DNA from: a virus
Taxonomy: Duplodnaviria > Heunggongvirae > Uroviricota > Caudoviricetes
Length of the DNA: 64,000 nucleotides
Strand: one strand, 5' to 3'
Virus record (IMG/VR): IMGVR_UViG_3300031957_002393
Coordinates: 20,373-84,372 of that record
Below the pieces are notes generated by a model. That model saw only the letters and a program-made list of their open reading frames with translations, was not told the origin of the DNA and searched no databases. The position numbers and the translations under genes are program-made. Below are positions 5,241 to 38,625 of this stretch, piece by piece. How positions within the stretch are numbered: the stretch's first letter is position 1; each line of letters opens with the position of its first letter.

Positions 5241-6983
5241 ATGACCGTCACAGCCCCCAACGTAGAGATCAACTTGCCGCTGGGCATGAAGTTGTTTCGG
5301 CCCCCGGGAGCCCACGAACGCTATGACGACATGATGGCACAGTTCTTCGCTACGCCTTATGCGTTTTGTTATGTGTGCCCCATCGTCACAATCAACGATG
5401 TCGTTGAGATGATGCAACCCACGGATAATCAGAAACTGGTGGCAACGAAGGCGCAAGACAGTAGGTTTATTTGGGTTAACAAGTATCGTCAGGCGTTCAT
5501 CACTACACTCATGGACATGATGCTTTTGCGTGATTGTATGTACGGGGAAGGCATTCAGGGCGCGTTCGTTGCACAGAAAGAAGACACCCACAAAGAGCAC
5601 ATGCGGCGCATTTCCTTCACGTACAACAAGATGAAAGAGGATCCCATCCTATCAAAGTTCATCGTGCCGTTGAAGAAGAATACAAGCGCAACGATTTCAG
5701 GTATTGAGTTCATTCACGGTGGTGGTATTTGGCCTATCACTGCGGGCTCTGACAGCCCGGGTGTCGGTCGCTCCTTCTCTCGTGTTGTGGAGACAGAGAG
5801 TTGCGAGATGCCCGCCGAAGACTTCCATAGGCTGAACACAAAGTTCTACCCTACGATCACCAAGCGACCCTTCGGTCGTATTTGGCGAGAGAGCACTCCG
5901 GGTAAAGCAGAAACACCCCAACACCGTGCTTGGCTAAAGGCACTCAAGGGTAACAGTCGATTTGAGCCTGTGTTTTTGAAGTGGTGGGAAGATAGCGTCA
6001 ACACGGTACCCTTGAGTGACAAGTTCTCGCCAATCACAGAAGAAGAGAAGGAATACGCTCGACGCCTTAAAGGCATCACAAAGGGGCACGTTTACTTTCG
6101 CCGCTTTGAGATTAGCGACTTCTGTGACGGTGACGAGAATCTGTTTGAGGTCAAGTACCCGAGCGGCCCTCTCAAGGGTTGGACACGCAGCACAGGCACA
6201 GTGTTCGATCAACACCGTCTACAGAAAATGTACGACACGTCAATCAGCGATGACACGGGACGAAACATCAATCATTACTGCCTCGTTGCCAAGAAGCCCA
6301 ACCCTTATCATCGTTACGTTCTGGTAATCGACCCGACGGACTTCGGGGCCACGGGCGATAATGCGGCTATGATCATGTTTGACCGCTGTGACTGGGAAGA
6401 GGTAGCTAAGTGGGAAGGACGGGAAGACCCTACGAAAAGCTACCCCCGTGCAAAGGAAATGTGCAAATACTACAACAACGCCACAATGGTCATCGAGAGC
6501 AACTGCTCTGCCTTCATTGCCTTAGCTACAAGGGATGACGAACCTGACGCTCCACCAATCTACTACGAAAAGAAAGACAAGCCCGGTTGGCGAGCTACAT
6601 CAAAGTCTATTCAGGAAGGTGAGGCCGCGGTTAATGAGCTACTCAAGGAAGAGGTGTTCACATTGAACTTCGCCTCTACCATTGAGCAGATGCTACACTT
6701 CGATGGTAACAAGCGTGACCGACGAGTACGCAATACCCGTGGCGAAAAAAGTCACTTCGATTCGGCGCGCTGCGCTGTCATCGCCGCTCACTGGCTGTAC
6801 AATGGGGGCTACTGCGCCCCCATCTCGGAGGAAGAGCTGCGGAAGCTACGCGAGGCACAAGCCGAGAGAGACGAGGCTATCGCCCGTGAGCGATTCATCG
6901 CTGCGCTCAAGCGCAACGGACGTTACGAGGATCCCAACGCCGACAGCGTGTGGGCACCTGGGGCAGCTCGGAGGATGATGTGA
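5241..6983 (+). CDS. terL: terminase large subunit (putative)
   Basis: 580 aa. C-terminal region has nuclease-like motifs YVLVIDPTDFGATGDNAAMIMFD and MVIESNCSAF (terminase RNaseH-like D...D...E-x-N pattern); directly precedes portal-sized gene. No canonical Walker A seen, start codon uncertain. Confidence 0.5.
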   Translation: MTVTAPNVEINLPLGMKLFRPPGAHERYDDMMAQFFATPYAFCYVCPIVTINDVVEMMQPTDNQKLVATKAQDSRFIWVNKYRQAFITTLMDMMLLRDCMYGEGIQGAFVAQKEDTHKEHMRRISFTYNKMKEDPILSKFIVPLKKNTSATISGIEFIHGGGIWPITAGSDSPGVGRSFSRVVETESCEMPAEDFHRLNTKFYPTITKRPFGRIWRESTPGKAETPQHRAWLKALKGNSRFEPVFLKWWEDSVNTVPLSDKFSPITEEEKEYARRLKGITKGHVYFRRFEISDFCDGDENLFEVKYPSGPLKGWTRSTGTVFDQHRLQKMYDTSISDDTGRNINHYCLVAKKPNPYHRYVLVIDPTDFGATGDNAAMIMFDRCDWEEVAKWEGREDPTKSYPRAKEMCKYYNNATMVIESNCSAFIALATRDDEPDAPPIYYEKKDKPGWRATSKSIQEGEAAVNELLKEEVFTLNFASTIEQMLHFDGNKRDRRVRNTRGEKSHFDSARCAVIAAHWLYNGGYCAPISEEELRKLREAQAERDEAIARERFIAALKRNGRYEDPNADSVWAPGAARRMM

Positions 6984-8671
6984 AGCCAAAGCAACTTAGA
7001 GCCCTCGTTCGGCGACACAAAGAACGATACAGGCAGGAAGAGAAGGATCTATTCGAGCTGAACACTCGATTCTACAATGGTGCCTTCTACGAGAACTCGC
7101 AACAGCGTTTCAGTCTGATGCGCCATGGCTCCACGGGTACGCCTCTTGCTGCTGTCAACCTAATCTTCGCTCTTACGGAATCCGTTTGCTCGTCTATGCT
7201 CGGGCGAGACATCAGTGTTGTAGCGAAGGGAGCAGACGAAAAATCTGAGCAGTTTGAGTTCATCGTTACGCGAATGCTTGCGAATGAGTTCGCACGCAAC
7301 AAGTTCCGTATGACAGCACAGGTGTCGCTAACTGACGCTGTGTTGAATCGACGTGGTTGCTTCAAGGTCATCCCGGATAAAGCCAACCAAGGAGCAAGGA
7401 TTCTTGAGGTGCATCCACGGTACCTCGGTTACTCTCCAGATGCACGGGTGTTAGACGATTCGTCGTACTTCATCCAATGCGTACCTCTGCCGTGGCGTCA
7501 GTTCAAAGCCAACATTGACAGCGGAGCCTACCTGTCACCGAAGAAGGGAGCCAAGCCCGAAGGCTTACCTCAATGGGCAGCAACAGATGAAGAGCAGCGA
7601 CATCGTGATATCTTCGGTTACGCTACCATGTGGGAAATTTACGACACATGGGAAGGCAAAGTTTATCACTACCATGAGTGTAGTGAGCAGGTGTTGTACG
7701 AAGGTCAACCGAGTAACCACCCTTTTGGTATGTTCAGCCTCAACACGAACCAGCGGAACCTCGATGGTTTGAGTGAAGTGGAGTTGATCCTTGAGCAACA
7801 GGTTGCGTTGAATGACTTCCGTTCGACTGTGAATCAACTTGCCTACACGCTCATCCCTCGGATGATGTACGATGCAGGCATGATTGACGAAGACCAGTTG
7901 ACGAGGGTTTTACACGGCTCCGTTGGCGGCTTTGTTCCCGTGAAGCGAAAAGGCAATGCTGTACAGAAGCAGGCGGATTTAAGCCAAATCTTCCGTGAGG
8001 TACCACGGCCGCAGATTCATGGTGACATGATCAACGCCATGAACACAGCGATGTCGGATGCACAGTTTGTAAGCTCACTCATGCCACAGAACCGTGGCCA
8101 AGCGGTTAACATTCGTACAGCTAAGGAAGCCAGTTTGATTGAGGCTCAGGAGAGAAATCGTATCAGCGGGCGCATGGCTAACATGGAAATCAACGGCATC
8201 GTCCCTGTGGCAGAACGGGTACTGTACTACATTAAGAAGTACAGGCAGGGACCGCACACAGTCAAGATGGGTAAGCAGGACTGGCAGCAACTCAGCGGAA
8301 ATGACCTGTTGTCGTTCAAGGGCTCGTATCAGTTAACGGCTCAGTCGCCAGTCAAGACAAACCCAGCCATCATCGCAGAAAACTTAGGTCAACTGCAAAA
8401 CATGCTCGTGCAAAACCCAGACATCAACATGCGTGAGGTCATCGCCCTTATTTTCGAGGGCATGGGGATTCCGAAGGAGCGAGTGTTGCTTTCTCCCGAG
8501 GAAACGGCTAAGATCCAAGAGCAGATGGCCGCACAACAAGCCGCACAACAAGGCGGCGTGAACCCCGACGCCATGGTGGCTGCGAGCGAGCAGGCCGCAC
8601 AAGAAGATCCCTCCGGGGGTCTCGCGACCGCAGAGCAAACGGCTGCTGCAGCCCAGGAGATGATGGGATGA
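6950..8671 (+). CDS. portal protein (putative)
   Basis: 573-aa ORF immediately after terminase (34-nt out-of-frame overlap, GTG start; alternative GTG 6977), followed by scaffold-like genes; assignment by size/synteny only. Confidence 0.45.
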   Translation: MGTWGSSEDDVKPKQLRALVRRHKERYRQEEKDLFELNTRFYNGAFYENSQQRFSLMRHGSTGTPLAAVNLIFALTESVCSSMLGRDISVVAKGADEKSEQFEFIVTRMLANEFARNKFRMTAQVSLTDAVLNRRGCFKVIPDKANQGARILEVHPRYLGYSPDARVLDDSSYFIQCVPLPWRQFKANIDSGAYLSPKKGAKPEGLPQWAATDEEQRHRDIFGYATMWEIYDTWEGKVYHYHECSEQVLYEGQPSNHPFGMFSLNTNQRNLDGLSEVELILEQQVALNDFRSTVNQLAYTLIPRMMYDAGMIDEDQLTRVLHGSVGGFVPVKRKGNAVQKQADLSQIFREVPRPQIHGDMINAMNTAMSDAQFVSSLMPQNRGQAVNIRTAKEASLIEAQERNRISGRMANMEINGIVPVAERVLYYIKKYRQGPHTVKMGKQDWQQLSGNDLLSFKGSYQLTAQSPVKTNPAIIAENLGQLQNMLVQNPDINMREVIALIFEGMGIPKERVLLSPEETAKIQEQMAAQQAAQQGGVNPDAMVAASEQAAQEDPSGGLATAEQTAAAAQEMMG

Positions 8672-9639: not shown

Positions 9640-10728
9640 ATGAGCACGCAGCAAGCCCAAGAGACGCCCATCGAGGGCGGCAACGACACCAGCCAGGACA
9701 CAGGTGCCTCGGGCGCCGGGGTAGACGGCTCGGGTGTTGACACGTCAACAGATAGCGGAGCAGAGGGCGGCGAGGCTATCGAGCCCGCAGAGGGAACCAT
9801 CGACTGGAACGGTGAGGTCGAGTCGCTGCAGAGCGCAGACTGGTTCAAGTCCGATGCAATCCCAGAGGAAGTACGTGGAGCTATTCTCAAAGGCATCCAA
9901 GAGAAAATCAGCAACTATAACCGTCGCACCACAGATGCCTGGACGAAGGCCGCTGAGGAGCGGAAGAAGTTTGAACAGGAGCAAGAGAAGTATCAAGGTG
10001 AGTGGGCGAATAAGCTACAGGACCTTGAGGATCGACGGAACGCATTCCTGCAGGCAGTAGAGAACGAAGGTCAACATGAGGCGTTGACGGCCGAGTTCAA
10101 GAAGATTCAAGCCGAACTACAAGCAAAGAACGAGCGTACATCTGAGCTTGAGACAAAGCTCGAAGCAGCCAACAAACGCTACTCCATCATGGAAGATGAG
10201 ATTCGTGGGGGTGTCAATGACCTCATTGAGCGCTTGAAGAAGGAGAAGATGGAAGTTACACAGCAGCTCGCTGAACGTAACGAAGTCCTGCAGCAAATCG
10301 AGCAACAGCGACTTGAGGCTGAGCACCAGAAGAACTACGAGTACGCAGTTAATCAGGTGCAGAAGTGGCTACCGCACGCAGACAAGATCCAAGAAGCCGA
10401 CATGGACACATTGATTTACGAGGGTAACCAGTTCATGGAACTGTACTACCGTCGTAATGGAGTCGACCCTGATCGCTTCGACCCGAGCAACCCAGAGCAC
10501 ATGAAGGTCAACAAGGGTGCATTGGAGTTCACCGAGCAGCGCCTCAAGCGACTGTACCCGGAACCTGAGAACCCCAACCCTGCTCCCACTGGAGCGCCCG
10601 CTGCAGATGAGTTGGCGAACGGCGGAAAGGGTAGTGTATCGGTAGAGCAAACGGAAACCAAAGCCGATGCGGTGCGGGCAGGACGAAACCCATACGAGCG
10701 GCACATCAAATCCAGTGTCTTCGGATAG
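9640..10728 (+). CDS. scaffold-like coiled-coil protein
   Basis: ATG 9640 with SD GGAGAG 7 nt upstream; acidic N-terminus then long Glu/Lys/Gln-rich heptad-like region (EQEQEKYQGEWANKLQDLEDRRNAFLQAVENEGQHEALTAEFKKIQAELQAK...). Confidence 0.45.
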   Translation: MSTQQAQETPIEGGNDTSQDTGASGAGVDGSGVDTSTDSGAEGGEAIEPAEGTIDWNGEVESLQSADWFKSDAIPEEVRGAILKGIQEKISNYNRRTTDAWTKAAEERKKFEQEQEKYQGEWANKLQDLEDRRNAFLQAVENEGQHEALTAEFKKIQAELQAKNERTSELETKLEAANKRYSIMEDEIRGGVNDLIERLKKEKMEVTQQLAERNEVLQQIEQQRLEAEHQKNYEYAVNQVQKWLPHADKIQEADMDTLIYEGNQFMELYYRRNGVDPDRFDPSNPEHMKVNKGALEFTEQRLKRLYPEPENPNPAPTGAPAADELANGGKGSVSVEQTETKADAVRAGRNPYERHIKSSVFG

Positions 10729-10776: not shown

Positions 10777-10803
10777 AAGGCCCCCGATCGACTCGGGGGC
10801 CTT
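10777..10803. terminator. bidirectional terminator hairpin between convergent genes
   Basis: GGCCCCCGA-TCGAC-TCGGGGGCC; T-rich on minus side (TTTCTCTT) and TTCGTCGTT on plus side; sits between stop 10728 (+) and stop 10830 (-). Member of the CCCCCGAGTCGA repeat family. Confidence 0.55.
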
Positions 10804-10829: not shown

Positions 10830-11915
10830 TCAGCCATTGGCCATCTCTTCTGCATCACGTTGCGCCACGGCTTGGCGAGCCTCACGGAGCTGAGCGCGTT
10901 TACGGTTACGTTGTTGTTGAACGAACGATGCTACATGAACGCCATTGACAGTAAGACTCTGCATGACAGCTCGGTTCTCGGCGTCGAATACAATATGCAG
11001 CTCAAGAGGCACATCACCTTCATCGTCCACAGGAAGGACAACCACGGGACCAAGGCGCTCCAAGGGCAAGGTAGTGTTTTCTTTGCAGACAAACACCAAC
11101 ACCTCCATAGGCCACCCATCAAACTGCATTCGATCACGGTGCCGAGCGATAGCAGTTTGACGTCCGTGTAGTTGAATACGACTGAACGGAACCGCACAAG
11201 CAACAGCACCGTGTAGCTTGTAATGATTCATGGTCGACACAAGCTTGTTGTCACGGTCGATGGGGTGAGGCACCCAACGCTCAGAGGCAGGCCGCAAAGA
11301 AGGGATGCGTTGAATGACCGCTGACAGAGACAGAGCCGAAGACGCGGAGGGGGAGGGGTCAGGTGTTGACGCGTCAAGAGCCTCAGCCTGCAGGGCCGCC
11401 AACGCCCCCTTGAGCCGCGCCAGCTCCGCCGACACCTCAGCCATCACCGAAGGCACCTCGGACGCAACAGGGGAGAGAGACGGCGAAGCATCATCCCCTC
11501 GGGGCGCATCAACCAGCGGCGCGATCTCCTCACCAAGTAGCTCGGGACCAATGGTGTTACCCTGGACTACATCAGCAGGGATTTCGTCAGGGTCATCACC
11601 ATCGTCGTCTAAATCGAAGATAACTACGGCCGACGGGGTGGAATCAGGCAGTGGATCCGTTGCGTCAAACTTAGTCGATAGCCCCCGCGACGCGGAAGCA
11701 TTAGGATCCACAAGCGACGCGGGATCGATCTCTGTGTCAAGCCACGAACGAGTCGAGTTACTTAGCCCTGGAAAGACTTCCTCGAAACCGTCAGGGGGCT
11801 GAAAGGCATCAGGTAGCAGGAGATGAAGGAGAGTAGATTGAATCCACCCATCCTCCTCTGTGTACACACCCGTAGACGCAAGCCGTTCACGGATAAGTTG
11901 TCGTACAGTAGGCAT
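10830..11915 (-). CDS. hypothetical acidic protein (361 aa)
   Basis: ORF at end of leftward operon; Asp/Pro/Ser-rich central region. Confidence 0.4.
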   Translation of the reverse strand: MPTVRQLIRERLASTGVYTEEDGWIQSTLLHLLLPDAFQPPDGFEEVFPGLSNSTRSWLDTEIDPASLVDPNASASRGLSTKFDATDPLPDSTPSAVVIFDLDDDGDDPDEIPADVVQGNTIGPELLGEEIAPLVDAPRGDDASPSLSPVASEVPSVMAEVSAELARLKGALAALQAEALDASTPDPSPSASSALSLSAVIQRIPSLRPASERWVPHPIDRDNKLVSTMNHYKLHGAVACAVPFSRIQLHGRQTAIARHRDRMQFDGWPMEVLVFVCKENTTLPLERLGPVVVLPVDDEGDVPLELHIVFDAENRAVMQSLTVNGVHVASFVQQQRNRKRAQLREARQAVAQRDAEEMANG

Positions 11916-13500: not shown

Positions 13501-14053
13501 CATGCCCATCGTAACCAGTGACGAACATCTGCACATCTTGACGACACTGAAAGGTGCACTCAACGGTAGCGCACGAAAAGACTTCCCTGCAGAGGTGTAC
13601 GATTGCACCTCCGATGACAGCCCTTTCGTTGCGATCGATTGGGTCCATGCAGCTACACGTCAACGACTGCTTCTGTGGCTACTCGATACATGCAACGAAG
13701 TGACGTGGATCAAGAAGGCGGCGCATACAGGCTACCCCATGATCACATGTGCGTTGCTTCAAGACGAGTTCACGATCGACATGGCTTCCCTTTGTTTAGA
13801 CTACGGACCTACAACGGGAGAAGAAGACCAAGCAATCGTGTTGACACAAGCTGTGTTAAGGGCCATTGACGCAATGAAGACAAAGGGTGAGGAAGAAGCA
13901 CCTCCATCGAAGCTACAAGAGATCATGCAACTGCTAACAGACTATGAAGGCGAACGCCTCAAGTACGCAACCCTAGTGACAGACACCAGCGTCAACGTGT
14001 ACAACTACGAACAGAGAAACATCACAACGATTCTACGGGACAATAAGGAGTAG
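13501..14053 (+). CDS. hypothetical protein (184 aa)
   Basis: ATG 13501 with SD AGGGAG 5 nt upstream; track ORF begins earlier at 13472 inside the palindrome. Confidence 0.45.
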
Positions 14054-14056
14054 AGA

Positions 14057-14782
14057 ATGTCGACAGGCATCAACTACAACCTCGACACGGGACTTTACGA
14101 AGTACGCTGCAAGGATCCACTCCCTGTAGAGCAGGGCTACTTGTTTTGTTACCACGCAGCCAAGAATCGAGACATGGCGGAACGGATCGCACGTGAGCAC
14201 GATGGTGTAGTGCGAGCAGCCATCGACTATGAGGCATGCCAGCGAGTACACAAGTTCTGGTCCCTGTTAAGCGGAAAGACTCAACAACCTATACTTACAA
14301 TGGACGTAATGCGAGCAGTCGTGCGAGCAACGTTCAAGGGTCTATGGAGGCAATTGCGTGTGGCTGTAGTCAAAGCGTTAGCACGCAGTCTGCCTTTACG
14401 CGAACAAGATTACAACGCCAACACAATGGCGATCATCTACCTGATTGCAGAGGATGTCAAGAGTCACACGGAGCCCATGACACCAGAGGATAGGGAGGTA
14501 CAATCGCTCATCATCCAGGCGTGTAAGCAAAACGCACGCCTTCGCTACTACTTCGCGGCAGAGTTGAGCATTAACGCAAACCGTAGCGATCGCATGGCAC
14601 CGAACAACATCTGTTACAACATCGCCATGGCGCTGTGGGGTGTAAAGGCAGAAGGTAAATCGCGTAAGGCATGTATGTACTACGACAACGAAGAGTACAT
14701 CAACATGTATCAACACATCAACCAGGATGACGCCCTCGAAGCTACATGGCTGCAGTGGCGAGATGGGACCACAGCCTCTTGA
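14057..14782 (+). CDS. hypothetical protein (241 aa)
   Basis: ORF 3 nt after previous stop; SD AAGGAG upstream. Confidence 0.45.
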   Translation: MSTGINYNLDTGLYEVRCKDPLPVEQGYLFCYHAAKNRDMAERIAREHDGVVRAAIDYEACQRVHKFWSLLSGKTQQPILTMDVMRAVVRATFKGLWRQLRVAVVKALARSLPLREQDYNANTMAIIYLIAEDVKSHTEPMTPEDREVQSLIIQACKQNARLRYYFAAELSINANRSDRMAPNNICYNIAMALWGVKAEGKSRKACMYYDNEEYINMYQHINQDDALEATWLQWRDGTTAS

Positions 14783-14791
14783 CACGTCAAG
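14778..14791. promoter_or_regulatory. CTTGACACGTCAAG palindromic site upstream of SD of 14809 gene
   Basis: Exact 14-bp copy; followed by GAGTAGAAGGAGTAAAAGATG. Confidence 0.5.
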
Positions 14792-14808
14792 AGTAGAAGG
14801 AGTAAAAG

Positions 14809-15174
14809 ATGACGAAGGATCCACAAGCATGGTGCTGCACAAACTGCGGCCACCATTTGGGCGTAGGCATGGAAAATGTGTGCACAATTTGCAAGGTGTG
14901 CACGCAACGCATGTATTGGCAACCATCAGGTTGCTGGGGAATGAAGAAACCACGGGAGGAAGAAGGCATGAGTGACAACGAAGCGACGAAGGACTACATC
15001 AAACAAGCGCTAAAGGAGCAGTTGGCCAGGGAGGTAGAGCGGTGTAACCATATCTGCGAGAAAAGCGTAGAAGCGGAAGTAGCGAGGTACAAAGCAGCCG
15101 CTAAAGCTGCGGGTGTAGACGGTGAGCACAACAACACGACGATTAACGTCGTGGTCACAATCGACTGGTATTAG
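14809..15174 (+). CDS. Cys-rich (zinc-binding) protein (121 aa)
   Basis: WCCTNCGHH...CTICKVCTQ; SD AAGGAG. Confidence 0.45.
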   Translation: MTKDPQAWCCTNCGHHLGVGMENVCTICKVCTQRMYWQPSGCWGMKKPREEEGMSDNEATKDYIKQALKEQLAREVERCNHICEKSVEAEVARYKAAAKAAGVDGEHNNTTINVVVTIDWY

Positions 15175-15188
15175 GAGTAAACACAACC

Positions 15189-15452
15189 ATGGCTGAAGGC
15201 ACGAAGCAACAACTCATAGAAAAGTACAACGAGGCAGTTAACGAACACATCAAACGGATGAAGCATAAGCACCTCAGAGAACTATACAAGTTTGAAGCGA
15301 TCATCTCCGTAGGCAGCGGTGGTAAGTTCCATGCGGTACCAGCGGAATTAGCGATCGCACGGCGCGACAACGTTGACTTCTTGAACACACCTGAACCCAG
15401 CCTAAAGAAGCTGCGTTATTGGGGTAAGAGGTTGAAGGAATTTGAGGGGTAG
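15189..15452 (+). CDS. hypothetical protein (87 aa)
   Basis: ORF with upstream AGGAG; Lys/Glu-rich. Confidence 0.4.
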   Translation: MAEGTKQQLIEKYNEAVNEHIKRMKHKHLRELYKFEAIISVGSGGKFHAVPAELAIARRDNVDFLNTPEPSLKKLRYWGKRLKEFEG

Positions 15453-15517
15453 GAGGAGGCAAATCGACTCGGGGGCGACATGAGCGACACCTCGGGGGCG
15501 ACACCCATCAGCAAAGT

Positions 15518-15531
15518 GTTGACACGTCAAG
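15518..15531. promoter_or_regulatory. GTTGACACGTCAAG palindromic site in noncoding region
   Basis: Third intergenic exact copy within 2 kb; flanked by CTCGGGGGCGACA x2 direct repeat (15490-15505) and CGCCCCCGAGTCTACGGGGGCG hairpin (15559-15580). Confidence 0.45.
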
Positions 15532-15654
15532 AGCACGGGGTGACAGCCCGCGACCACGCCCCCGAGTCTACGGGGGCGAAGGGATAACAACACGAGGAAG
15601 TGAAGAACAGTAGCACGGAGTAACATTGAGTAACAATCACACAGCATCACACCG

Positions 15655-15775
15655 TGATAATTCCAAATTGAAAAATCAAATTTTTTTATTATCATTGATC
15701 AACATAAATAAAACAAGGTTTGCAGCATACGTATAACATAATAGTCAGGTAAATAGGAAAAAGTAGGCGTATTAC
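15655..15775. other. AT-rich island (~120 bp, <30% GC) in otherwise GC-rich genome; candidate DNA-unwinding element/origin or strong promoter region
   Basis: aattccaaattgaaaaatcaaatttttttattatcattgatcaacataaataaaacaagg...; no ORF; followed by TATACGTATA palindrome at 15866. Confidence 0.4.
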
Positions 15776-16011
15776 GAGAGACACATCGCTTAAATCCCGC
15801 GCGCCGCCCTGGGGGGACGGCCTCGGGGGCCTTGAAAAAAATCGTTCCGCACCTCCCTTCGTGTCGATCGGTCATATACGTATACGGGCATGGGGGGTTC
15901 CACTATTCGTGGGGGCACTTAGACTTTCCCCTCGCAAGGGGACGGCGTTAGTGTCAACCGAACACTATACTTATTGTCATCGTGACACTATGTACCGCAC
16001 TGGTAGCTGGC

Positions 16012-16041
16012 ACGAAAAAGCCTCGCAGTGGAAGGCGAGGC
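16012..16041 (-). terminator. rho-independent terminator for minus-strand genes
   Basis: GCCTCGC-AGTGGAAG-GCGAGGC stem-loop; on minus strand followed by TTTTTCG (plus-strand AAAAAG at 16015-16020); 30 nt after stop of 16072 gene. Confidence 0.6.
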
Positions 16042-16071
16042 TATAGGCTTCTGGGTATGGCGACCGGTCGA

Positions 16072-16362
16072 CTATGCGGCCGCGTTCCACCAATGGGGAG
16101 CGCCGAACCGCAGTGCGAGGAAGGTGCGATCGATTTCGTACTTGACGAGCTGCACTGCGAAATGTGCGGCCATGAAGGAAACGTGATCTTCGGAACCATG
16201 GCCCAAAGCGGTCTGCACCGACTTCACGCAAAAGGGCTGGCCGCTTTCGATCATGCTCTCGACGATCTTGCACGCCTTTTCTTTGCGGAGTTCAACCGTA
16301 AACAGGCGATGGTGACGCATAGCGGTGCGACCCGAATGGACGACAGGGTAGGCTGTGAACAT
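16072..16362 (-). CDS. hypothetical protein (97 aa)
   Basis: Start set to ATG 16362 (minus-strand ACAATGGAGATCGATCAATG: SD GGAGAT); track ORF longer (to 16434). Confidence 0.45.
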   Translation of the reverse strand: MFTAYPVVHSGRTAMRHHRLFTVELRKEKACKIVESMIESGQPFCVKSVQTALGHGSEDHVSFMAAHFAVQLVKYEIDRTFLALRFGAPHWWNAAA

Positions 16363-16383
16363 TGATCGATCTCCATTGTGAGA

Positions 16384-16403
16384 CACAGACAGTGTAATCG
16401 ATC
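16384..16403 (-). promoter_or_regulatory. 20-bp direct repeat CACAGACAGTGTAATCGATC (copy 1), ~10 nt upstream of SD
   Basis: Identical 20-mer again at 16720-16739, same position relative to SD GGAGAT of the next gene. Confidence 0.45.
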
Positions 16404-16440
16404 CATCGCTACGCGGCAAGGGATCGATCATCAAGCGATC

Positions 16441-16698
16441 TTAGAAGATGTCGATCGCTTCGCCATTGTCGATCGCTTCGTTGATCGCGTCGCTGAAGTC
16501 GGTGATGTCCCAACCCGTAGTATCAGTCTCACACCAGTAACCACGGGTCATCGGAACTGCTACACCGATGTCATCAAAGCACAACCACGGACCGTTGCGG
16601 GCCATACGGATATCACCGTCCATCATAGCCGAGAGATCGGCCAGCATCTTTGACGAGATGACAGGGTTGTGACGGTCGGCAGAGTGCGGCATGGGCAT
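16441..16698 (-). CDS. hypothetical protein (EAID-repeat C-terminus)
   Basis: Start set to ATG 16698 (minus-strand ACGGAGATTCAAACCATG); tandem GTCGATCGCTTCG DNA repeat encodes EAIDNGEAID. Confidence 0.45.
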   Translation of the reverse strand: MPMPHSADRHNPVISSKMLADLSAMMDGDIRMARNGPWLCFDDIGVAVPMTRGYWCETDTTGWDITDFSDAINEAIDNGEAIDIF

Positions 16699-16719
16699 GG
16701 TTTGAATCTCCGTTGGGGG

Positions 16720-16739
16720 CACAGACAGTGTAATCGATC
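16720..16739 (-). promoter_or_regulatory. 20-bp direct repeat CACAGACAGTGTAATCGATC (copy 2)
   Basis: Exact repeat of 16384-16403. Confidence 0.45.
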
Positions 16740-17127
16740 ACCCGAGGAATGCAAGGGGCAAGATCCACGCGATCGCAACGACACCGATAGAAGCGCCGAT
16801 GGCATTGTGGCGACGGTGCATAGCGTCGATCGTTGACTCGATACCCGCCCACCACAACGGATCGCGAGTGTCTACGATGACTCGCTGGTCGACAGTGATC
16901 GACGCGCCACCGGTCGAGAGGTTGAGAGCGAGTCGACGGGTAGCGATACCCCCGCGTGCACGGGGCACGATCCGCAGCTCGACACGGTAGCTGGAGACCA
17001 GCGCCGCTACACGAGAGGCATAGTGTCGGATCGACACGATCGCCCGGTACCGCGCCCCCTCAGTAGAATCGATCGCGTGGGTCATAGCAGCGAGAGTGAG
17101 AAGTGCGACGATAGCGAGAGGATACAT
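16738..17127 (-). CDS. membrane/secreted protein with N-terminal signal/TM (MYPLAIVALLTLAAMTHA)
   Basis: Start set to ATG 17127 preceded by ACAATGGAGATCATAATG (same SD context as neighbours). Confidence 0.45.
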   Translation of the reverse strand: MYPLAIVALLTLAAMTHAIDSTEGARYRAIVSIRHYASRVAALVSSYRVELRIVPRARGGIATRRLALNLSTGGASITVDQRVIVDTRDPLWWAGIESTIDAMHRRHNAIGASIGVVAIAWILPLAFLG

Positions 17128-17459: not shown

Positions 17460-18040
17460 GGCGGGATCTCCTTTGATTGAGACACGACACTGCTACCGCA
17501 GCGATCACGGCATGTCCACAAAAGAATCATGTCCATTATATACGCGAAAGGCGACCGCCTATTGCAAGTATTGGGCCAATTGGACATTGGCACGGGGAAT
17601 GCATTAGTGGGAGTGCTTATGGTCCCGTCTCCAGGCGCCGATAGCATAGTGACTATCGACCTTTTCGTCTTTGTTATTGTTATACCTTACGACCCTTTAC
17701 TTATGTTTTATGTGTCTACCTCTACCCTCTTTTCACCTACGCACTGCTACCATGGGGGTTTATGCGGAGTGTATTGTATGGATCATTACTACATGAATGC
17801 CCCGATGACTCGGGGGCGATCGAGTGAGCATTTTTACTTACCAGGGGGGCGCCCCGTCGACTCGCTGGGGCGATCCCGCGGTGATCGTGTTGACTATGAT
17901 CCCCTTGACGCCTGTATTTCCGATGTCGTCCGAAGATTCTTTTAAAACAACCCTTGCCATTGGGGACCCGTAGACATAAGCTCTCTGTGTCGGAAGGGAA
18001 GCGGCGCCCCGCTGCTACCAACGACAGAGGAGATCAAACA

Positions 18041-19051: not shown

Positions 19052-19525
19052 ATGCGAACAACAGAAGCACGCTACACGATCGGGCAACGCTACTCGCGCA
19101 ACGCTACAGGCAACGGCTACAGGCCCGCTACCTACGGGGAATGGCACGCCGTGACACTGCGATACAAGCGCAACGAGATCACGATCCTTGTGGATCGATC
19201 CATGGTCGATCGTATGATCGTCCGGCGGGTCATCGGCTCGGCTGTGTTCTGTCTCGCCGATACAAACCCTCGTTACGGCACGGCTTCCTTTATCGTGCTC
19301 GATATGGAAACCGAGATCCGGCATGGATCCACGGTTGACATCGGGGACGGGGAAGCATACGATCTGACGGGTACCACGGGTGATCTTTTCTTTCAGGGAG
19401 AAGAGTGGACCGCGTTTCTACACCCTGATATGGATCCGTGCGCTGACAACACCCCAGATCCTTTCGACCTTGACGATCTCACAGTGATCCGACGCGTGAT
19501 CGACTATTGGGGAGAAGTGTGTTAG
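19052..19525 (+). CDS. hypothetical protein (157 aa)
   Basis: ATG 19052 with SD GAGGAGA; leader GTAAGCAACGGAACAAACAACAGG. Confidence 0.45.
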   Translation: MRTTEARYTIGQRYSRNATGNGYRPATYGEWHAVTLRYKRNEITILVDRSMVDRMIVRRVIGSAVFCLADTNPRYGTASFIVLDMETEIRHGSTVDIGDGEAYDLTGTTGDLFFQGEEWTAFLHPDMDPCADNTPDPFDLDDLTVIRRVIDYWGEVC

Positions 19526-19679
19526 ACGGTTGACATTGCAGCGCTGTAGCGATAGCCCCGTCGACTCGGGGGCTACATAGGCCACAAGATCCGGTGCCTA
19601 CCTTTGGGTATCGTCCACCTGGACGGTACCGTTAGGTAACCATCGGGCCGCATAGGCTCACACTCTGGAGATACAAGCA

Positions 19680-27508: not shown

Positions 27509-28075
27509 ATGAACAACGATACCATGAACGCTACTACTTTTGACTTCGGGGATGGTGCCGGTCCTGTGCCTGCGAAGCGTCATATCAACCCCGATGGCAG
27601 CGAAGGTGGATGGGTGGCATCGACCGCAATTGTTGCGGGTAGCGCGTGGGTGTTCGGGAATGCACGGGTGTACGGGGATGCATGTGTGTACGGGTATGCA
27701 CAGGTGTTCGGGAATGCACGGGTGTACGGGTATGCACGGGTGTACGGGGATGCACAGGTGTTCGGGAATGCACAGGTGTACGGGGATGCATGTGTGTACG
27801 GGAATGCATGTGTGTACGGGAATGCACGGGTGTGCACCACCGCTGACTGCGCTTTCGGGAGCACAGGAGATTACGCCTGGACAGCATACACCACTAACAC
27901 AACTACCTTCCTCAAGTATGGGTGTGAAGCACATGCTATCGAGTGGTGGCGTCAGCAGGACAGCAAACTCTCGGTGAAGCACGGTCACGACGAGAACCAT
28001 TGGGCGTATGTCAAAGCAGTCATCGCGATCGCAGAAGTAATCGAAGCCAACAGGGTTAAGGAAGGTGAGGAATGA
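27509..28075 (+). CDS. hexapeptide-repeat (left-handed beta-helix-like) protein
   Basis: 10 tandem V[FY]G[NDY]A[RQC] hexapeptides encoded by 18-bp tandem DNA repeat; ATG 27509 after AAAAAGGAAC. Confidence 0.5.
   Translation: MNNDTMNATTFDFGDGAGPVPAKRHINPDGSEGGWVASTAIVAGSAWVFGNARVYGDACVYGYAQVFGNARVYGYARVYGDAQVFGNAQVYGDACVYGNACVYGNARVCTTADCAFGSTGDYAWTAYTTNTTTFLKYGCEAHAIEWWRQQDSKLSVKHGHDENHWAYVKAVIAIAEVIEANRVKEGEE
27650..27829 (+). repeat. 10 x 18-bp in-frame tandem repeat GTGT(A/T)CGGG(A/G/T)ATGCA(C/T)(G/A)G
   Basis: Direct reading of 27650-27829; encodes the hexapeptide array. Confidence 0.85.
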
Positions 28076-28975: not shown

Positions 28976-30196
28976 ATGAACAACAATGATTCCACGGGGG
29001 AGTGCATGGAACTATACGATCAAGTTTTCAAGGTGCCAGCCATGCAACAATGGTTACAAGAGCACGAAGCCAATATCGACTTCATCTGTGTGAGATGTAC
29101 GCTATCCCACGGGGACAAAGGGTACCATGTGATCGGTGTCCGTGGACCCACGGGCCTTACCTTCTACCTGTGGAGCATTCAACATAACGACAGTGTTAAG
29201 GCTACGCCTTACTACGGTTGGCACACACTCAATCTCAATCACTGCAAAGTTACTGCGGTGGCGTGGAATGAAGAGGGTGTGCAGGTTCCATGCAAGGTAC
29301 CACGTTGGGCACTCTTCTCTCTTGCGTGCAGAGCTGCAAGTGTCGAAGGTTACAAGGGTGAGCCTACCAACCGCTTTCACACGGGCGCGCACGGGAAGCT
29401 GAAGTACACATACGGCAAGCAAGAAGACGTAGCTATGCCCCCAAGGTACGATCACCGTGACATGTTCACTGTGACAGAGGTGCAATGGGATGTTAGGTAT
29501 GACACCACGGAGGAAGACATGACTACACCGAAGCAACTACAGCCCGGGGAAGTAGTTGAAACAGAGGAGCTAAGGGAACGCATCGTTCACATGGACGAAT
29601 GCTACTTCGAGCGAGAGGAGAGACAGCGTAACCCTGTTGGTGGCTACACAGAACTCAAGTGGGTCAAGTCTGCGGGGCGATACTACGAGCGACTCTCAGC
29701 TAAGCGTGAATGGGTATCGATCGGAACGATGCTAAAGGTGTACGGTTTCTGTGTCAAGTGGCGTATCGTTTCGCCCCCGAGTCAACTGTGCACCACCGAC
29801 AACATGAGCGACAAGGTAGAAGCCATGAGCGACAACACGGACAAAGTCAACGACACGGTGCCTGTGGACACGATCACTATCACTCTCACGCTACCTGTAC
29901 CCATCGGTACGGGGAAGCTGGTCGACAAGAAGCGATTGCTCGACTACTTTGCCTCACTTATGCACGATGAGGCGTTTAGGGACGCATGTAGCATGGTCGA
30001 TGCGGGCATTAGTGTGTGCGACACCCACAGCGTAGAAAACGGTGGGTCAGTAGGTGCGTGGATCCGTGAACGATCCTATGTCACCACGAAGGATGACGCC
30101 CCCGAGTCGACTGGAGTAGCATCTGACCTCAACGCCCCCGAGTCTACTGGGCGCACAAAGGGAACGATGCTACGATCAGCTCCTCCGTGTAAGTAA
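28976..30196 (+). CDS. hypothetical protein (406 aa)
   Basis: Long ORF; contains two CGCCCCCGAGT repeat copies near 3' end in-frame (DAPESTG x2). Confidence 0.4.
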   Translation: MNNNDSTGECMELYDQVFKVPAMQQWLQEHEANIDFICVRCTLSHGDKGYHVIGVRGPTGLTFYLWSIQHNDSVKATPYYGWHTLNLNHCKVTAVAWNEEGVQVPCKVPRWALFSLACRAASVEGYKGEPTNRFHTGAHGKLKYTYGKQEDVAMPPRYDHRDMFTVTEVQWDVRYDTTEEDMTTPKQLQPGEVVETEELRERIVHMDECYFEREERQRNPVGGYTELKWVKSAGRYYERLSAKREWVSIGTMLKVYGFCVKWRIVSPPSQLCTTDNMSDKVEAMSDNTDKVNDTVPVDTITITLTLPVPIGTGKLVDKKRLLDYFASLMHDEAFRDACSMVDAGISVCDTHSVENGGSVGAWIRERSYVTTKDDAPESTGVASDLNAPESTGRTKGTMLRSAPPCK

Positions 30197-30229
30197 AAAG
30201 GTATTACGCGGTGAGTGTCGACACACATG

Positions 30230-30895
30230 TCACTCGTCGGGTCTCAGCCAATCGGGTACAGTGGTGTCGACATGATCACTTTCATTCAATCGACTCGGGG
30301 GCGTAGTAGCTGTTGTGTCGATGGTGTCAATGAGCGACGTTGGTGCCACGGGGGTAACGTCGACACGGGGAGGATCCTTTTTCAATCCATCACGTTTTAC
30401 TCCCTCAGTCATCATGCGTAGACGATCGAAGATTTCTGCGATGCCAGCTTCCTCGGGAGACACAGGCTTGTTCTCTCGCAACGCTGCCTCGGTGTCGTAT
30501 TGATACTTCGATGCCACACCTGCGTGAAACAACACCTGCTTCGCTGCGTTGACACGGGCTGTATCTTTCGCTTCCACGTCTTCGGCGATGTCCATTAGTA
30601 CAGTGAGTGCACGGGGACCAAAGCCGATAGCTTTCTGAGCGATCGACAAGCGTTGCGATTCCATGTACGCCACTCGTGCACGACGGAGAGCGGGGTGGCA
30701 CGAGAGACCCGATGTGAAGGATAACAAACTGAGGCCAAGGGACGTTGCGATTGCCGGATCACTTTGACCCTCGGACAACAAGCGTATACATTCCTCGACC
30801 ATCATGGCGTTGTGGACCCACGGGGGTGCACCCGGCGCAATGTTGTATTCGGGTACATTAACGGTAGTCATTGTGCCACTGGTAACTTTAGGCAT
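30230..30895 (-). CDS. terminase small subunit-like HTH DNA-binding protein
   Basis: ECIRLLSEGQSDPAIATSLGLS (HTH) and RALTVLMDIAEDVEAKDTARVNAAKQVLFHAG resemble Terminase_2/TerS C-terminal motif; start set to ATG 30895 (minus-strand SD GGAG). On opposite strand and 24 kb from terL. Confidence 0.4.
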   Translation of the reverse strand: MPKVTSGTMTTVNVPEYNIAPGAPPWVHNAMMVEECIRLLSEGQSDPAIATSLGLSLLSFTSGLSCHPALRRARVAYMESQRLSIAQKAIGFGPRALTVLMDIAEDVEAKDTARVNAAKQVLFHAGVASKYQYDTEAALRENKPVSPEEAGIAEIFDRLRMMTEGVKRDGLKKDPPRVDVTPVAPTSLIDTIDTTATTPPSRLNESDHVDTTVPDWLRPDE

Positions 30896-31655
30896 AGTTG
30901 GACTCCATGGATGAAGGTAGCTGCGTTGAACTCGGGGGTGACGGCAAGAAACGGCATGGGCAGAAAGCATATTCGACTCGGACACCCCTTCGACTCGGGG
31001 GCGACCACGAGTCATCGGGGGTAGCGCGTCGCCCAGGCGAGTCGACTGTGCAAGTCGCCTGAGGGAGTAGAAGGTGGAAGCATGGAGCGCCACGGCACAC
31101 ACAGAGTACCACGGACAGTGGGGTTTGTCGATCAGGTAGGCATATCCCTACGGGATTCTACGGGGGAGGGGTCACCTGCTCCATTACGAGAGTGTCGGCC
31201 GTCAGCGGATTCTCGGGGGGCTAAATGGAGAAACCTCGTACTTCCCCTACCCCTACCTCATTTCTACTACTCTACTACTACTCGACTACGATCACTCTCT
31301 CGTGAAGAAGTGCTACGGAGTAGGCGAGGTTTTGATCGGTACTATAGGGGCTGTAGAAAACTTCTGAGCGAACGTGACAGCCGTGTGACACCGAGCTGTC
31401 AAAATCGCCGAGAGTGTAGTAGCGGCCGACATTCTCTTAATGGAACCCGCGTTTCCTCCGTGCAACTACCTACCGCCATTACGACTATGACCGTCACCAC
31501 AGCACTCTCGCGGAATCGTGCCATATGGCCCGCAGTTTGTGAGGGCTTGTGCGTAGTCACACGGTGTAACTCCCTGTACCACACTTCCACAAAGACGTTG
31601 CACCCTGCTACCCAATGGGCTACAATGTGTGCACCATCCTCATGGAGACACACCG

Positions 31656-31964
31656 ATGCAGTTGTTTAAGTCACCTCGTCGACGACGAGTCAGGTACCAT
31701 GGTACCTTGCCTTTCCACAAGAGTTGTAGGGTGTACGACTGTGAAGTCATGATCCCCTACAGAGGCAAAGAGTACAGATACGTCGCTGTCATGCGATCAC
31801 AGGTACCGGGGCTTGAATCAGGTCTCACACTTTACTTCGTGTACGAGAGTGAAGATGGGCGACAGCGGTTGCGGGGACCTGTGGGATGGTGCGACACAGT
31901 GAGCTACAAGTCTGCGTTGCGATCGATCAACATGGTTCTCGTGGGTGACGATGGATCTTCATGA
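31656..31964 (+). CDS. hypothetical protein (102 aa)
   Basis: ATG 31656 ORF embedded in repeat-rich noncoding region. Confidence 0.3.
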   Translation: MQLFKSPRRRRVRYHGTLPFHKSCRVYDCEVMIPYRGKEYRYVAVMRSQVPGLESGLTLYFVYESEDGRQRLRGPVGWCDTVSYKSALRSINMVLVGDDGSS

Positions 31965-32423
31965 ACATGTTGACATGCTCCCACGGGGATGCTACCATGT
32001 GGATATAGACAGTCGCCCCCGAGTTGACTGTGCGCTCCTGGCGAGTAAACGGGGATAACAGGATTAACAACATTCGCCCCCGAGTTATCTGGGCGATATA
32101 GAAGGGTCAACGGGGCTAACACTACAAAGATGACACGATTGAGCACCGGCCATGATGATCGCCCAGGCGAGGCAACTGTGGTCAGTGGCATGGTAATCAC
32201 TACACCACAACGACATGTTACCCCCATCGACTCGGGGGATGAGGGTTGTTGCTTCTTACTACCACAGTCAACTCGGGGGCGATCACCGGTTGACACTCTT
32301 CGGGCCCGGTGTTACATGAGAATCGGGGTGAAAAAGTAACACCATCCTACAAACAACAACTGACGCCCCCGAGTCAACGGGGCAACATGACGATACCTTC
32401 CACACCACTACAAAGGTAAAACA

Positions 32424-38542: not shown

Positions 38543-38546
38543 TCGT

Positions 38547-38620: not shown

Positions 38621-38625
38621 CTTTT

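What the first reader, a model, noticed from the sequence alone, without database searches (positions are those of the whole stretch)
15455..16045. AT-rich island with flanking direct repeats, palindromes and hairpins in a 600-bp noncoding gap: candidate origin/DUE or regulatory hub
Between convergent gene blocks there are several elements in a row. The first is a CTCGGGGGCGACA x2 direct repeat (15490-15505). Next come the GTTGACACGTCAAG site (15518) and the CGCCCCC-N8-GGGGGCG hairpin (15559-15580). Then there is a 120-bp stretch below 30% GC (15655-15775). After that come a GC-rich GGGGGACGGCCTCGGGGGCC segment, a TATACGTATA palindrome (15866) and a minus-strand terminator (16012-16041). The combination of iteron-like repeats plus a DNA-unwinding-like AT tract is typical of replication origins. 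The region could also host a strong promoter or an ncRNA.
Basis: seen in the sequence. Interest (0 to 1): 0.6.

Follow-up and report, generated by a model that had tools for sequence, protein, structure and literature searches.

The report
Non-coding junction with dispersed phage motifs
This is a real 619-bp non-coding junction between two converging gene blocks of a very unusual phage, but its "origin-like" repeats are copies of two short motifs scattered across the genome, so only the extreme AT-rich island still hints at a replication origin.

Summary
All the described elements are present, some a few bases off the stated coordinates. The gap (15453-16071) lies between convergent ORFan operons. 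It is non-coding by gene calls and by codon score.

The origin reading rests on "iterons", and these are not local. CTCGGGGGCGACA x2 and the CGCCCCC...GGGGGCG hairpin belong to a dispersed family (ACTCGGGGGCG: 21 copies, 1.4 expected). Twelve of the 21 copies lie at 29.7-32.4 kb. GTTGACACGTCAAG belongs to a second family (TTGACACGTCAA: 15 sites, 0.5 matches expected). This second motif is conserved exactly in all the distant relatives I could find. Both families are enriched in intergenic DNA.

The central ~430 bp is unique within the window. It has no Rfam match and no unusual fold, and nothing similar turned up in the phage or plasmid collections. It contains the most AT-rich, least stable DNA of the 64 kb (25% GC against a mean of 54%) and one rightward sigma70-like promoter match of ordinary quality. 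The minus-strand terminator is canonical.

Best reading: a transcription-boundary and regulatory junction built from genome-wide motifs, plus an unexplained promoter or unwinding island. A replication origin is not excluded (about 0.2) but has no specific support. No orthologous gap exists in any relative, so conservation could not be tested.

The parts
15189..15452 (+). Last gene (87 aa, ORFan) of the + operon 13502-15452. Its stop codon TAG is at 15450-15452.
   Evidence: Gene calls on the source contig. Codon score +0.20, like confident genes. No Pfam or PHROG hit.
15468..15503 (+). Two direct copies of CTCGGGGGCGACA (15468-80 and 15491-503). They are members of the dispersed 'G5' family (core ACTCGGGGGCG).
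   Evidence: The family has 21 copies at <=1 mismatch against 1.4 expected.
15519..15530 (+). TTGACACGTCAA quasi-palindrome (extended identity 15514-15533). It is a member of the second dispersed family, probably a protein-binding operator or promoter element.
   Evidence: The motif is exact in all relatives.
15557..15578 (.). G5 stem-loop CGCCCCCG-AGTCTA-CGGGGGCG. It is also the inverted partner of the copy at 15466-15477. It has no U-tract and is a likely 3'-end or barrier hairpin for the + operon.
   Evidence: I2, I6; dG -19.5, z -3.4. Similar G5 hairpins sit after other genes (10777-10801, 19551-19574).
15655..15775 (.). AT-rich island: 25.6% GC, and 15% GC over 15657-15716. It is the least stable duplex of the window.
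15668..15695 (+). Sigma70-like promoter match TTGAAA-16-TATCAT (10 of 12). The predicted start is near 15702, pointing right into non-coding DNA.
   Evidence: The match is no better than about ten others in the window, and promoter-like sites are not enriched genome-wide.
15681..15716 (.). Imperfect 20-nt-arm palindrome centred on TTGATCAA (15695-15702).
   Evidence: (I1).
15796..15831 (.). GC-rich segment with an imperfect hairpin and a degenerate G5 copy CCTCGGGGGCC (15821-15831). That copy is inverted relative to 15558-15566, so G5 cores bracket the AT island.
   Evidence: D2, I8; z 0.1, fold not significant.
15916..15953 (.). Local hairpin around TCCCCTCGCAAGGGGA.
   Evidence: I3; dG -21.5, z -2.7.
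15948..15991 (.). Two 21-nt direct repeats, TTAGTGTCAACCGAACACTAT and TTATTGTCATCGTGACACTAT (76% identical, 23-nt spacing). Significance is borderline.
   Evidence: D3. My estimate gives about 0.2 such pairs expected by chance.
16012..16042 (-). Intrinsic terminator of the - operon: 8-bp stem, 8-nt loop, then TTTTTCG.
   Evidence: (dG -14.7).
16072..16362 (-). Last gene (96 aa, ORFan) of the - operon 17459-16072.

Best explanation
The gap is the non-coding junction where two convergent operons of small ORFan genes end. It has three parts.

(1) Left 130 bp (15453-15580). This is a cluster of the phage's two genome-wide motif families. It holds three copies of the G-rich element GACTCGGGGGCG. 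One of them is folded with its inverted partner into a strong stem-loop, which most likely ends or stabilises the + operon transcript. It also holds one copy of the lineage-conserved quasi-palindrome TTGACACGTCAA. That motif is most likely the binding site of a dimeric phage DNA-binding protein, or a phage-specific promoter element.

(2) Right end (16012-16042). This is a canonical intrinsic terminator for the - operon.

(3) Middle (about 15581-16011). This 430 bp is unique, non-coding DNA bracketed by inverted G5 cores. Its AT island most likely acts as a stand-alone promoter or unwinding element that gives a short rightward non-coding transcript.

Shown: the anatomy, the dispersal and enrichment of the motifs, conservation of the palindrome in relatives, non-coding status, and the extreme AT content. 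Inferred: protein binding, termination at the G5 hairpin, and promoter activity.

The repeats are therefore general regulatory or structural punctuation of this genome, not origin-specific iterons.
For: - Dispersed families. ACTCGGGGGCG has 21 hits against 1.4 expected. TTGACACGTCAA has 18 matches (15 distinct sites) against 0.5 expected. These are the two most over-represented k-mers of the window.
- All similarity between the gap and the rest of the window is confined to 15462-15580.
- Both families are enriched in the 12% of the sequence that is non-coding: 12 of 21 (p=9e-7) and 5 of 14 (p=0.02).
- Both are absent from the structural-gene region, from about 4.8 kb upstream of the window to window position 9.7 kb.
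- G5 hairpins follow other genes. One example is the hairpin after the scaffold-like gene at 10777-10801, which is conserved in the relatives L137 and L138.
- TTGACACGTCAA is exact in every relative. It occurs 4 times in the 7.3 kb of L137 and 1-2 times in each short contig. The relative orientation is kept, and the motif is present in the orthologous divergent intergenic region.
- Orientation follows transcription in 11 of 13 exact copies (p=0.011).
- At 13472 and 14779 the motif starts exactly 30 nt before the ATG, just 5' of the ribosome-binding site.
- ORFs inside the gap have negative codon scores, while the flanking genes score like real genes.
- The terminator is confirmed.
- A MarR-type winged-helix protein is encoded at 55128-55646. 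It is one candidate binder of the palindrome, by inference only.
Against: - No transcript or binding data exist.
- The G5 hairpin has no U-tract, and about half of the G5 copies cannot form a hairpin at all. Termination is therefore not the family's only role, and perhaps not its real one.
- G5 orientation is not tied to transcription direction.
- Most TTGACACGTCAA copies lie inside genes.
- The sigma70-like match is ordinary, and it points at the 3' end of a convergent operon with no gene to serve.
- The central 350 nt folds no better than shuffled sequence on either strand (z -0.7 and -0.6).
- Nothing in this explanation requires an island as extreme as 15% GC over 60 bp.
Confidence: 0.45

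Rival explanations
1. Replication origin. The AT island is the DNA-unwinding element. The adjacent G5 or TTGAC sites, or the 2 x 21-nt repeats on the other side, bind an initiator such as the 740-aa primase-helicase. Alternatively, a transcript from the in-island promoter primes synthesis through an R-loop.
For: - The island is the least stable duplex in 64 kb, with z about 5.
- It lies in about 430 bp of non-coding DNA enclosed by two transcript-ending structures, where no gene needs a promoter.
- Significant repeats sit directly beside it.
- A promoter-like site lies inside it.
- From my own knowledge: every phage needs an origin, and phage origins often pair protein-binding repeats or a promoter with an AT-rich tract.
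Against: - The 'iterons' belong to dispersed families of 21 and 15 copies. The main G5 cluster is at 29.7-32.4 kb.
- No replication gene is nearby. The neighbours are strict ORFans: for the 241-aa protein the only hit among 1.84 billion representative proteins is itself.
- Cumulative GC skew shows no inflection at 15.5 kb.
- G5 is scarce in the relatives.
- Nothing here is specific to replication.
Confidence: 0.2
2. An independent non-coding RNA gene. The transcript would be about 300-340 nt, starting near 15702 (+) and running to the hairpin at 16019-16042. It could act in trans, for example through its CACCUCCCUU anti-Shine-Dalgarno-like stretch at 15850-15859, or as an antisense RNA against the end of the - operon.
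For: - A promoter-like site has no downstream gene.
- The region is non-coding.
- There are two local hairpins, at 15916-15953 (z -2.7) and at 16019-16042.
Against: - No Rfam family matches, even at E<=10.
- The overall fold is not better than shuffles on either strand.
- The 3' hairpin lacks a U-tract on the + strand.
- No homologous sequence exists with which to test covariation.
Confidence: 0.12
3. The region is mostly functionless. It would be a recombination scar, or foreign AT-rich DNA captured between G5 repeats during shuffling of ORFan cassettes. Only the terminator and the motif copies would be under selection.
For: - The AT island is bracketed by inverted G5 cores at 15558-66 and 15822-30 (I8).
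- The adjacent + block (13502-15452) is not homologous in any relative, although the flanking conserved genes are syntenic. It is bounded by G5 plus TTGAC motifs on both sides.
- The island's composition is far from the genome's.
Against: - Phage genomes are compact. This is the second-largest gap in 60 kb.
- The same sequence is 100% identical in the second assembly that spans the gap (L002, from a different sample). That says little, because the population is clonal.
- No donor sequence was found.
Confidence: 0.15
4. A physical genome terminus or packaging site (a DTR boundary or a pac site), lying between the structural region and the long early-gene array.
For: The position is suggestive. 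The gap lies between the structural or late genes (before about 13.3 kb) and the roughly 38-kb + strand array of small genes that starts near 18 kb. It is non-coding, repeat-bearing, AT-rich DNA.
Against: No read-level evidence is available. The Logan contig that spans the gap runs straight through it. The terminase gene is 8.5 kb away.
Confidence: 0.05

Closest known systems
Iteron-plus-DUE origins (lambda ori and plasmid-type origins; from my own knowledge)
   Same: Repeated short sites lie directly beside a strongly AT-rich tract, with GC-rich, palindrome-bearing DNA on the far side.
   Different: The repeats here are not locus-specific: they have 21 and 15 genome-wide copies. Only two are direct repeats at this locus. 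No initiator gene overlaps or adjoins the site.
Transcription-primed phage origins (T4 oriF/oriG, the T7 primary origin, lactococcal phage c2 ori; from my own knowledge)
   Same: A promoter-like site is associated with an unwinding-prone AT tract inside non-coding DNA that serves no gene.
   Different: The promoter match lies inside the AT tract, not upstream of it, and it is of ordinary quality. No transcript or R-loop evidence exists.
PeSL cassettes of T4-like phages: small composite terminator/promoter sequences in hyperplastic regions that mediate indels (PMC4122927, PMC2839356)
   Same: Short conserved stem-loop-containing motifs are dispersed among small ORFan genes and enriched between genes. 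They flank a gene block that is replaced by unrelated genes in relatives.
   Different: No sigma70 -10 element accompanies the motifs. Spacing between the G5 and TTGAC elements varies from about 30 to 130 nt. No pair of close relatives is available to show an indel bounded by the motifs.
Stoperators of Cluster A mycobacteriophages: numerous repressor-binding sites across the genome that also stop elongation (PMC9283540)
   Same: A 12-14-bp site is present in many copies across the genome, with orientation biased towards the direction of transcription. Several copies sit at stop codons or just upstream of starts. The 3' end, GTCAAG, resembles the L5 consensus ...TGTCAAG as I recall it.
   Different: The site here is quasi-palindromic, and most copies are intragenic. 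No repressor or integrase was identified, and the phage looks lytic (92 kb, tRNAs).
Satellite phage P4 ori/crr: two separated clusters of short repeats bound by the alpha primase-helicase (from my own knowledge)
   Same: There are two clusters of the same short motif (15.47-15.58 kb and 29.7-32.4 kb), and a P4-alpha-like primase-helicase gene is present (DUF927 and phrog_8841).
   Different: Many single G5 copies lie elsewhere, including inside genes. There is no evidence that the primase-helicase binds them.

Membership tests
Iteron-type replication origin | A locus-specific array of three or more initiator-binding direct repeats | tested here: not met
   Only two direct copies and one inverted copy lie here. 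The motif has 21 copies window-wide, 12 of them at 29.7-32.4 kb.
Iteron-type replication origin | An adjacent AT-rich DNA-unwinding element | tested here: met
   25.6% GC over 121 bp. This is the lowest GC and the least stable duplex of the 64-kb window.
Iteron-type replication origin | Linkage to an initiator or replication gene | tested here: not met
   The flanking proteins have no Pfam or PHROG hit. The primase-helicase and helicase genes lie at 55.7-60 kb.
Iteron-type replication origin | A strand-compositional switch at the site | tested here: inconclusive
   Cumulative GC skew rises through 15-16 kb without an inflection. Skew in this genome largely follows gene orientation.
Iteron-type replication origin | Initiation of replication or autonomous replication | not testable with these tools
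   This needs marker-frequency data, 2D gels or cloning.
Transcription-primed origin (T4 oriF/G, T7, c2 type) | A functional promoter that directs a non-coding transcript into a DUE | tested here: inconclusive
   One 10/12 sigma70-like match lies at 15668-15695 inside the island. Such matches are not enriched in this genome.
Intrinsic (Rho-independent) terminator | A GC-rich stem-loop followed by a U-tract, downstream of a stop codon | tested here: met
   16042-16019 (-) has 8 bp with 6 GC pairs, followed by TTTTTCG, 30 nt after the stop at 16072. The 15557-15578 hairpin fails the U-tract criterion.
PeSL-like composite promoter/terminator cassette | A conserved stem-loop joined to a host-type early promoter | tested here: not met
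   No -10 hexamer lies at 16-18 nt from the TTGACA of the motif in any copy. The spacing between the stem-loop and the palindrome is variable.
PeSL-like composite promoter/terminator cassette | Dispersed in ORFan-rich plastic regions and sitting at the boundaries of swapped genes | tested here: inconclusive
   The motifs are enriched in non-coding DNA and confined to 9.7-60 kb. The + block 13502-15452 is non-homologous in relatives and is flanked by the motifs. No close pair of genomes shows an indel junction.
Stoperator-type dispersed operator | Many copies of one asymmetric site, oriented with transcription | tested here: inconclusive
   There are 9 exact copies plus 6 with one mismatch. 11 of 13 exact copies (window plus L137) are co-oriented with transcription (p=0.011). 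The site is quasi-palindromic.
Stoperator-type dispersed operator | A cognate immunity repressor and a temperate lifestyle | not tested
   No repressor or integrase was seen among the proteins scanned. Only a MarR-type protein was found. About 29 kb of the contig lies outside the window.
Known ncRNA family (Rfam 15) | A covariance-model match | tested here: not met
   There were only noise hits at E>4 in 14500-17000. At gathering thresholds the whole window gave only tRNAs.

The most novel reading that the evidence does not exclude
The gap is the replication origin of a previously undescribed phage lineage and works in a P4-like, two-cluster fashion. The phage's DUF927-type primase-helicase, or an ORFan initiator, would recognise the G-rich GACTCGGGGGCG motif at this locus and at a second, larger cluster 15 kb away (29.7-32.4 kb). 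It would then open the 15%-GC tract, possibly helped by a non-coding transcript started inside the island.
Probability: 0.12. Interest if true: 0.6.

Novelty: new member of a known kind. Interest (0 to 1): 0.33.

Why it matters
If the best explanation holds, this is ordinary phage punctuation: terminators, operator or promoter motifs, and a junction between cassettes. What is unusual is the lineage, which is so isolated that nearly every gene is an ORFan.

Two things are useful. First, the two motif families are defined here. TTGACACGTCAA in particular is conserved exactly across relatives whose proteins share only 39-59% identity, so it is a handle for finding the lineage's regulator and its transcription units. 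Second, the AT island is the single best experimental candidate for an origin or a strong promoter in this genome.

The finding does not by itself open a long-standing question.

Tried and rejected
- **Similar DNA in the phage (INPHARED) and plasmid collections.** blastn found nothing for the gap, and megablast found nothing for 24 kb of the window against phages. tblastn with the portal protein against phages also found nothing.
- **Relatives of the flanking proteins in IMG/VR.** None.
- **Exact-motif scans of IMG/VR.** Only single chance hits, and no contig with several copies.
- **Relatives through conserved neighbours.** The scaffold-like and MazG-like proteins gave only short Logan contigs, L137-L146. 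Those contigs end before the gap or carry unrelated genes where the + block would be. No orthologous gap is therefore available, and no covariation test was possible.
- **Scans with the protein alignments A1 and A3.** IMG/VR and JGI metagenomes gave nothing usable.
- **A concatenated query of nine flanking proteins.** It returned nothing, not even the self matches.
- **The 241-aa neighbour.** It is a strict ORFan, and its single-sequence AlphaFold model was too poor (pLDDT 47.7) to use for a fold search.
- **Other samples.** They carry 100% identical sequence, so there is no strain variation to exploit.
- **Small-ORF readings.** The candidates include a 35-aa ORF at 15480-15587 and a hydrophobic 30-aa ORF at 15784-15692 (-). 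I rejected them for lack of a ribosome-binding site at working distance and for low or negative codon scores.
- **TTGACACGTCAA as a sigma70 -35 element.** Rejected, because no -10 follows in any copy.
- **TTGAAAAATCAA in the island as a variant of the palindrome.** Rejected, because one such TTGA-N4-TCAA match is expected by chance.
- **A third over-represented 12-mer (ACACCCGTGCAT).** It comes from 18-nt coding repeats of a beta-solenoid protein and is unrelated.
- **Literature search for the motifs.** It returned only primer-like coincidences.

Full report
**Context.** The window is part of a 92.5-kb metagenomic phage contig (JGI 3300076251, Ga0565006_000107). Identical fragments occur in two Logan assemblies. 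The window carries these recognisable genes:
- an SU10-like portal gene at 6980-8671;
- a block of large minus-strand, presumably structural, genes upstream;
- a primase-helicase and a helicase at 55.7-60 kb;
- six tRNA genes.

Between about 18 and 55 kb lies a long array of small plus-strand genes, almost all without family assignment. The lineage is very isolated. There was no DNA or portal match in 50,697 phage records. The gap-flanking proteins have no relatives in IMG/VR. The 241-aa neighbour of the gap matches only itself among 1.84 billion representative proteins.

**Observation.** Details and corrected coordinates are in the observation check. Independent gene calls place a four-gene + operon at 13502-15452 and a four-gene - operon at 17459-16072. 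The gap is therefore 15453-16071: 619 bp between convergent genes. It is the second-largest non-coding stretch in 60 kb. A codon-usage log-odds score trained on 13 confident genes gives +0.08 to +0.27 for the eight flanking genes. It gives -0.26 to +0.05 for every ORF inside the gap. The gap is non-coding.

**The repeats are not local iterons.** K-mer matching of the gap against the whole window showed that all shared sequence is confined to 15462-15580. That sequence belongs to two dispersed families, which are also the two most over-represented k-mers of the window.

*Family 1, 'G5' (core ACTCGGGGGCG).*
- It has 21 copies at one mismatch or fewer, against 1.4 expected.
- Twelve copies lie at 29.7-32.4 kb, around the largest non-coding gap of the window (31670-32423).
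- Twelve of the 21 copies lie in the 12% of the sequence that is non-coding (p=9e-7).
- About half of the copies pair with an upstream CCCCG to form a GC stem-loop with a conserved GACT-containing loop. The rest cannot form a hairpin.
- Orientation is not tied to the direction of transcription.
- Hairpin forms follow the scaffold-like gene (10777-10801, dG -25.5) and gene 19052-19525. The first is conserved in relatives.
- In the gap, the copies are the two CTCGGGGGCGACA repeats, the 15557-15578 stem-loop (dG -19.5, z -3.4) and a degenerate copy at 15821-15831.

*Family 2, the quasi-palindrome TTGACACGTCAA.*
- The scan gave 18 matches at one mismatch or fewer, which are 15 distinct sites, against 0.5 expected.
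- Its one-mismatch variants include perfect palindromes (TTGACGCGTCAA, TTGACATGTCAA).
- At 13472 and 14779 it starts exactly 30 nt before an ATG, immediately 5' of the Shine-Dalgarno sequence.
- No -10 hexamer follows it in any copy, so it is not simply a sigma70 -35 element.

Neither family occurs in the structural-gene region, from about 4.8 kb upstream of the window to window position 9.7 kb. Four places in the window show a co-oriented G5 copy followed 30-130 nt later by the palindrome.

**Relatives.** Searches with the conserved neighbours recovered three related lineages, all as short Logan contigs (L137, L138, L139-L146). The neighbours used were the scaffold-like protein (39% identity to the relatives) and the MazG-like pyrophosphohydrolase (55-59% identity).
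- Synteny is kept from the scaffold-like gene through the MazG block up to the divergent intergenic region.
- The genes that follow are unrelated to the window's + block, and no contig contains an equivalent of the gap.
- Conservation or covariation of the gap could therefore not be tested.
- TTGACACGTCAA is exact in every relative. It occurs four times in the 7.3 kb of L137 and once or twice in each short contig.
- Its relative orientation is the same throughout. It is present in the orthologous divergent intergenic region and between genes of the variable block. It shares a downstream extension, GAG(T)TT-GGGG or CCCC.
- Eleven of 13 exact copies point with transcription (p=0.011).
- G5 is scarce in the relatives apart from the terminator after the scaffold-like gene. 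Its spread looks specific to this phage.

**The unique centre.** Positions 15581-16011 match nothing else in the window, and nothing similar turned up in the phage or plasmid collections. There is no Rfam match, even at E<=10.
- The AT island is the compositional extreme of the 64 kb. Over 120 bp its GC is 25%, against a mean of 54.1% (SD 5.0); the next lowest value is 40%.
- Over 15657-15716 the GC is 15%.
- Nearest-neighbour duplex stability is about 5 SD above the mean.
- One sigma70-like match, TTGAAA-16-TATCAT at 15668-15695 (+), lies inside the island. There are about ten equally good matches elsewhere, and such matches are not enriched over shuffles in this genome.
- The 351 nt from 15700 to 16050 fold no better than shuffled sequence on either strand (z -0.7 and -0.6).
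- Only local hairpins stand out: 15916-15953 (z -2.7) and the terminator.
- The ATACGTATA pair and the short 10-nt-period repeats are at chance level. The 2 x 21-nt repeat at 15948-15991 is borderline.
- The minus-strand terminator (16042-16019 plus its T-run) is canonical.

**Origin tests.**
- For an origin: the DUE-like island; its position in about 430 bp enclosed by two transcript-ending structures, where no gene needs a promoter; and the significant repeats beside it.
- Against an origin: the repeats are genome-wide families with a larger cluster elsewhere; the neighbours are ORFans and the replication genes lie about 40 kb away; and cumulative GC skew passes through the gap without an inflection, although skew here mainly follows gene orientation.
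- Nothing found is specific to replication.

**Conclusion.** The best-supported reading (confidence about 0.45) is a transcription-boundary and regulatory junction with three parts:
- a left-hand cluster of the two genome-wide motifs, with a G5 stem-loop ending or stabilising the + operon transcript and a TTGACACGTCAA operator or promoter element;
- a right-hand intrinsic terminator;
- a unique AT-rich core between them, whose role (a stand-alone promoter for a short non-coding transcript, or an unwinding element) remains inferred.

The rivals are an origin (about 0.2), a trans-acting or antisense ncRNA gene (about 0.12), a largely functionless recombination scar between G5 repeats (about 0.15), and a genome terminus or pac site (about 0.05).

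**Comparison with known systems.** In kind, the region resembles known dispersed phage regulatory repeats. The closest are the PeSL terminator/promoter cassettes of T4-like phages (PMC4122927, PMC2839356) and the stoperators of Cluster A mycobacteriophages (PMC9283540). Membership of either family fails on defining features. There is no accompanying sigma70 promoter, and no repressor or temperate lifestyle was identified. The motif sequences do not occur in the searchable literature other than as coincidental primer-like matches.

**Limits.** There are no expression, binding or replication data. There is no orthologous locus. The host is unknown. About 29 kb of the contig lies outside the window and was only partly inspected.

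Noticed in passing
window 29700-32450 (gap 31670-32423; divergent gap 30896-31081): This is the largest non-coding stretch of the window. It is the main cluster of the G5 motif: 12 of 21 copies, in both orientations, some of them inside the 406-aa and 221-aa genes on the antisense strand. It also carries further sub-repeats (CGCCCAGGCGAG.C.ACTGTG at about 31025 and 32150; ACGGGG.TAAC). It is at least as good a candidate for a cis-acting DNA element as the gap under study.
   Followed up: partly
window 17460-18040: The called gene 17619-17945 has a negative codon score (-0.08). The stretch holds the second most AT-rich spot of the window (17640-17770) and a G5 hairpin (17795-17818). It is probably another roughly 580-bp non-coding region, at the divergent junction in front of the long + gene array.
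   Followed up: partly
L137 5450-5700; L139/L140/L145 downstream of the TTGACACGTCAA site: In relatives, the orthologous divergent intergenic region carries a purine-rich, degenerate GGATGGTGGAGG-type repeat tract of about 250 bp. This tract is absent from the window.
   Followed up: no
window 11366-11377; L137 3399; L138 1971; L139 2016: A copy of the TTGAC..GTCAA palindrome sits at the same position inside the 361-376-aa gene in all four lineages, on the antisense strand, although the proteins are only about 39% identical. It may be a DNA-level site embedded in a coding sequence.
   Followed up: partly
window 27509-28075: The gene encodes a YdcK-type beta-solenoid repeat protein. Its 18-nt coding repeats produce the third most over-represented 12-mer (ACACCCGTGCAT).
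   Followed up: yes
window 38355-39190 and 42855-42930: There are six tRNA genes (Gln, Asn, Phe, Lys, Thr and one other). For the sixth, at 38474-38542, ARAGORN reports an odd two-base anticodon, while Rfam scores it as a tRNA (43.8 bits). A PTH2 peptidyl-tRNA hydrolase gene lies among them (38723-39097).
   Followed up: no
window 9640-10728: I first took this 362-aa protein for the capsid protein. It is E/A/R-rich and looks like a coiled coil in the alignment with its relatives, so it is more likely a scaffolding protein. The G5-type hairpin after it is conserved in the relatives.
   Followed up: partly
window 55128-55646: A MarR-type winged-helix protein is encoded next to the primase-helicase gene. 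It was the only DNA-binding family hit among the roughly 30 proteins I scanned, and it is a candidate binder of the 12-bp palindrome.
   Followed up: no
window coordinates versus the source record: Mapping the loci gives window position 1 = record position 29003. On that mapping the 64-kb window would run 438 bases past the end of the 92,564-bp JGI contig. The window must therefore come from a longer or circularised copy, which could bear on where the genome ends lie.
   Followed up: no
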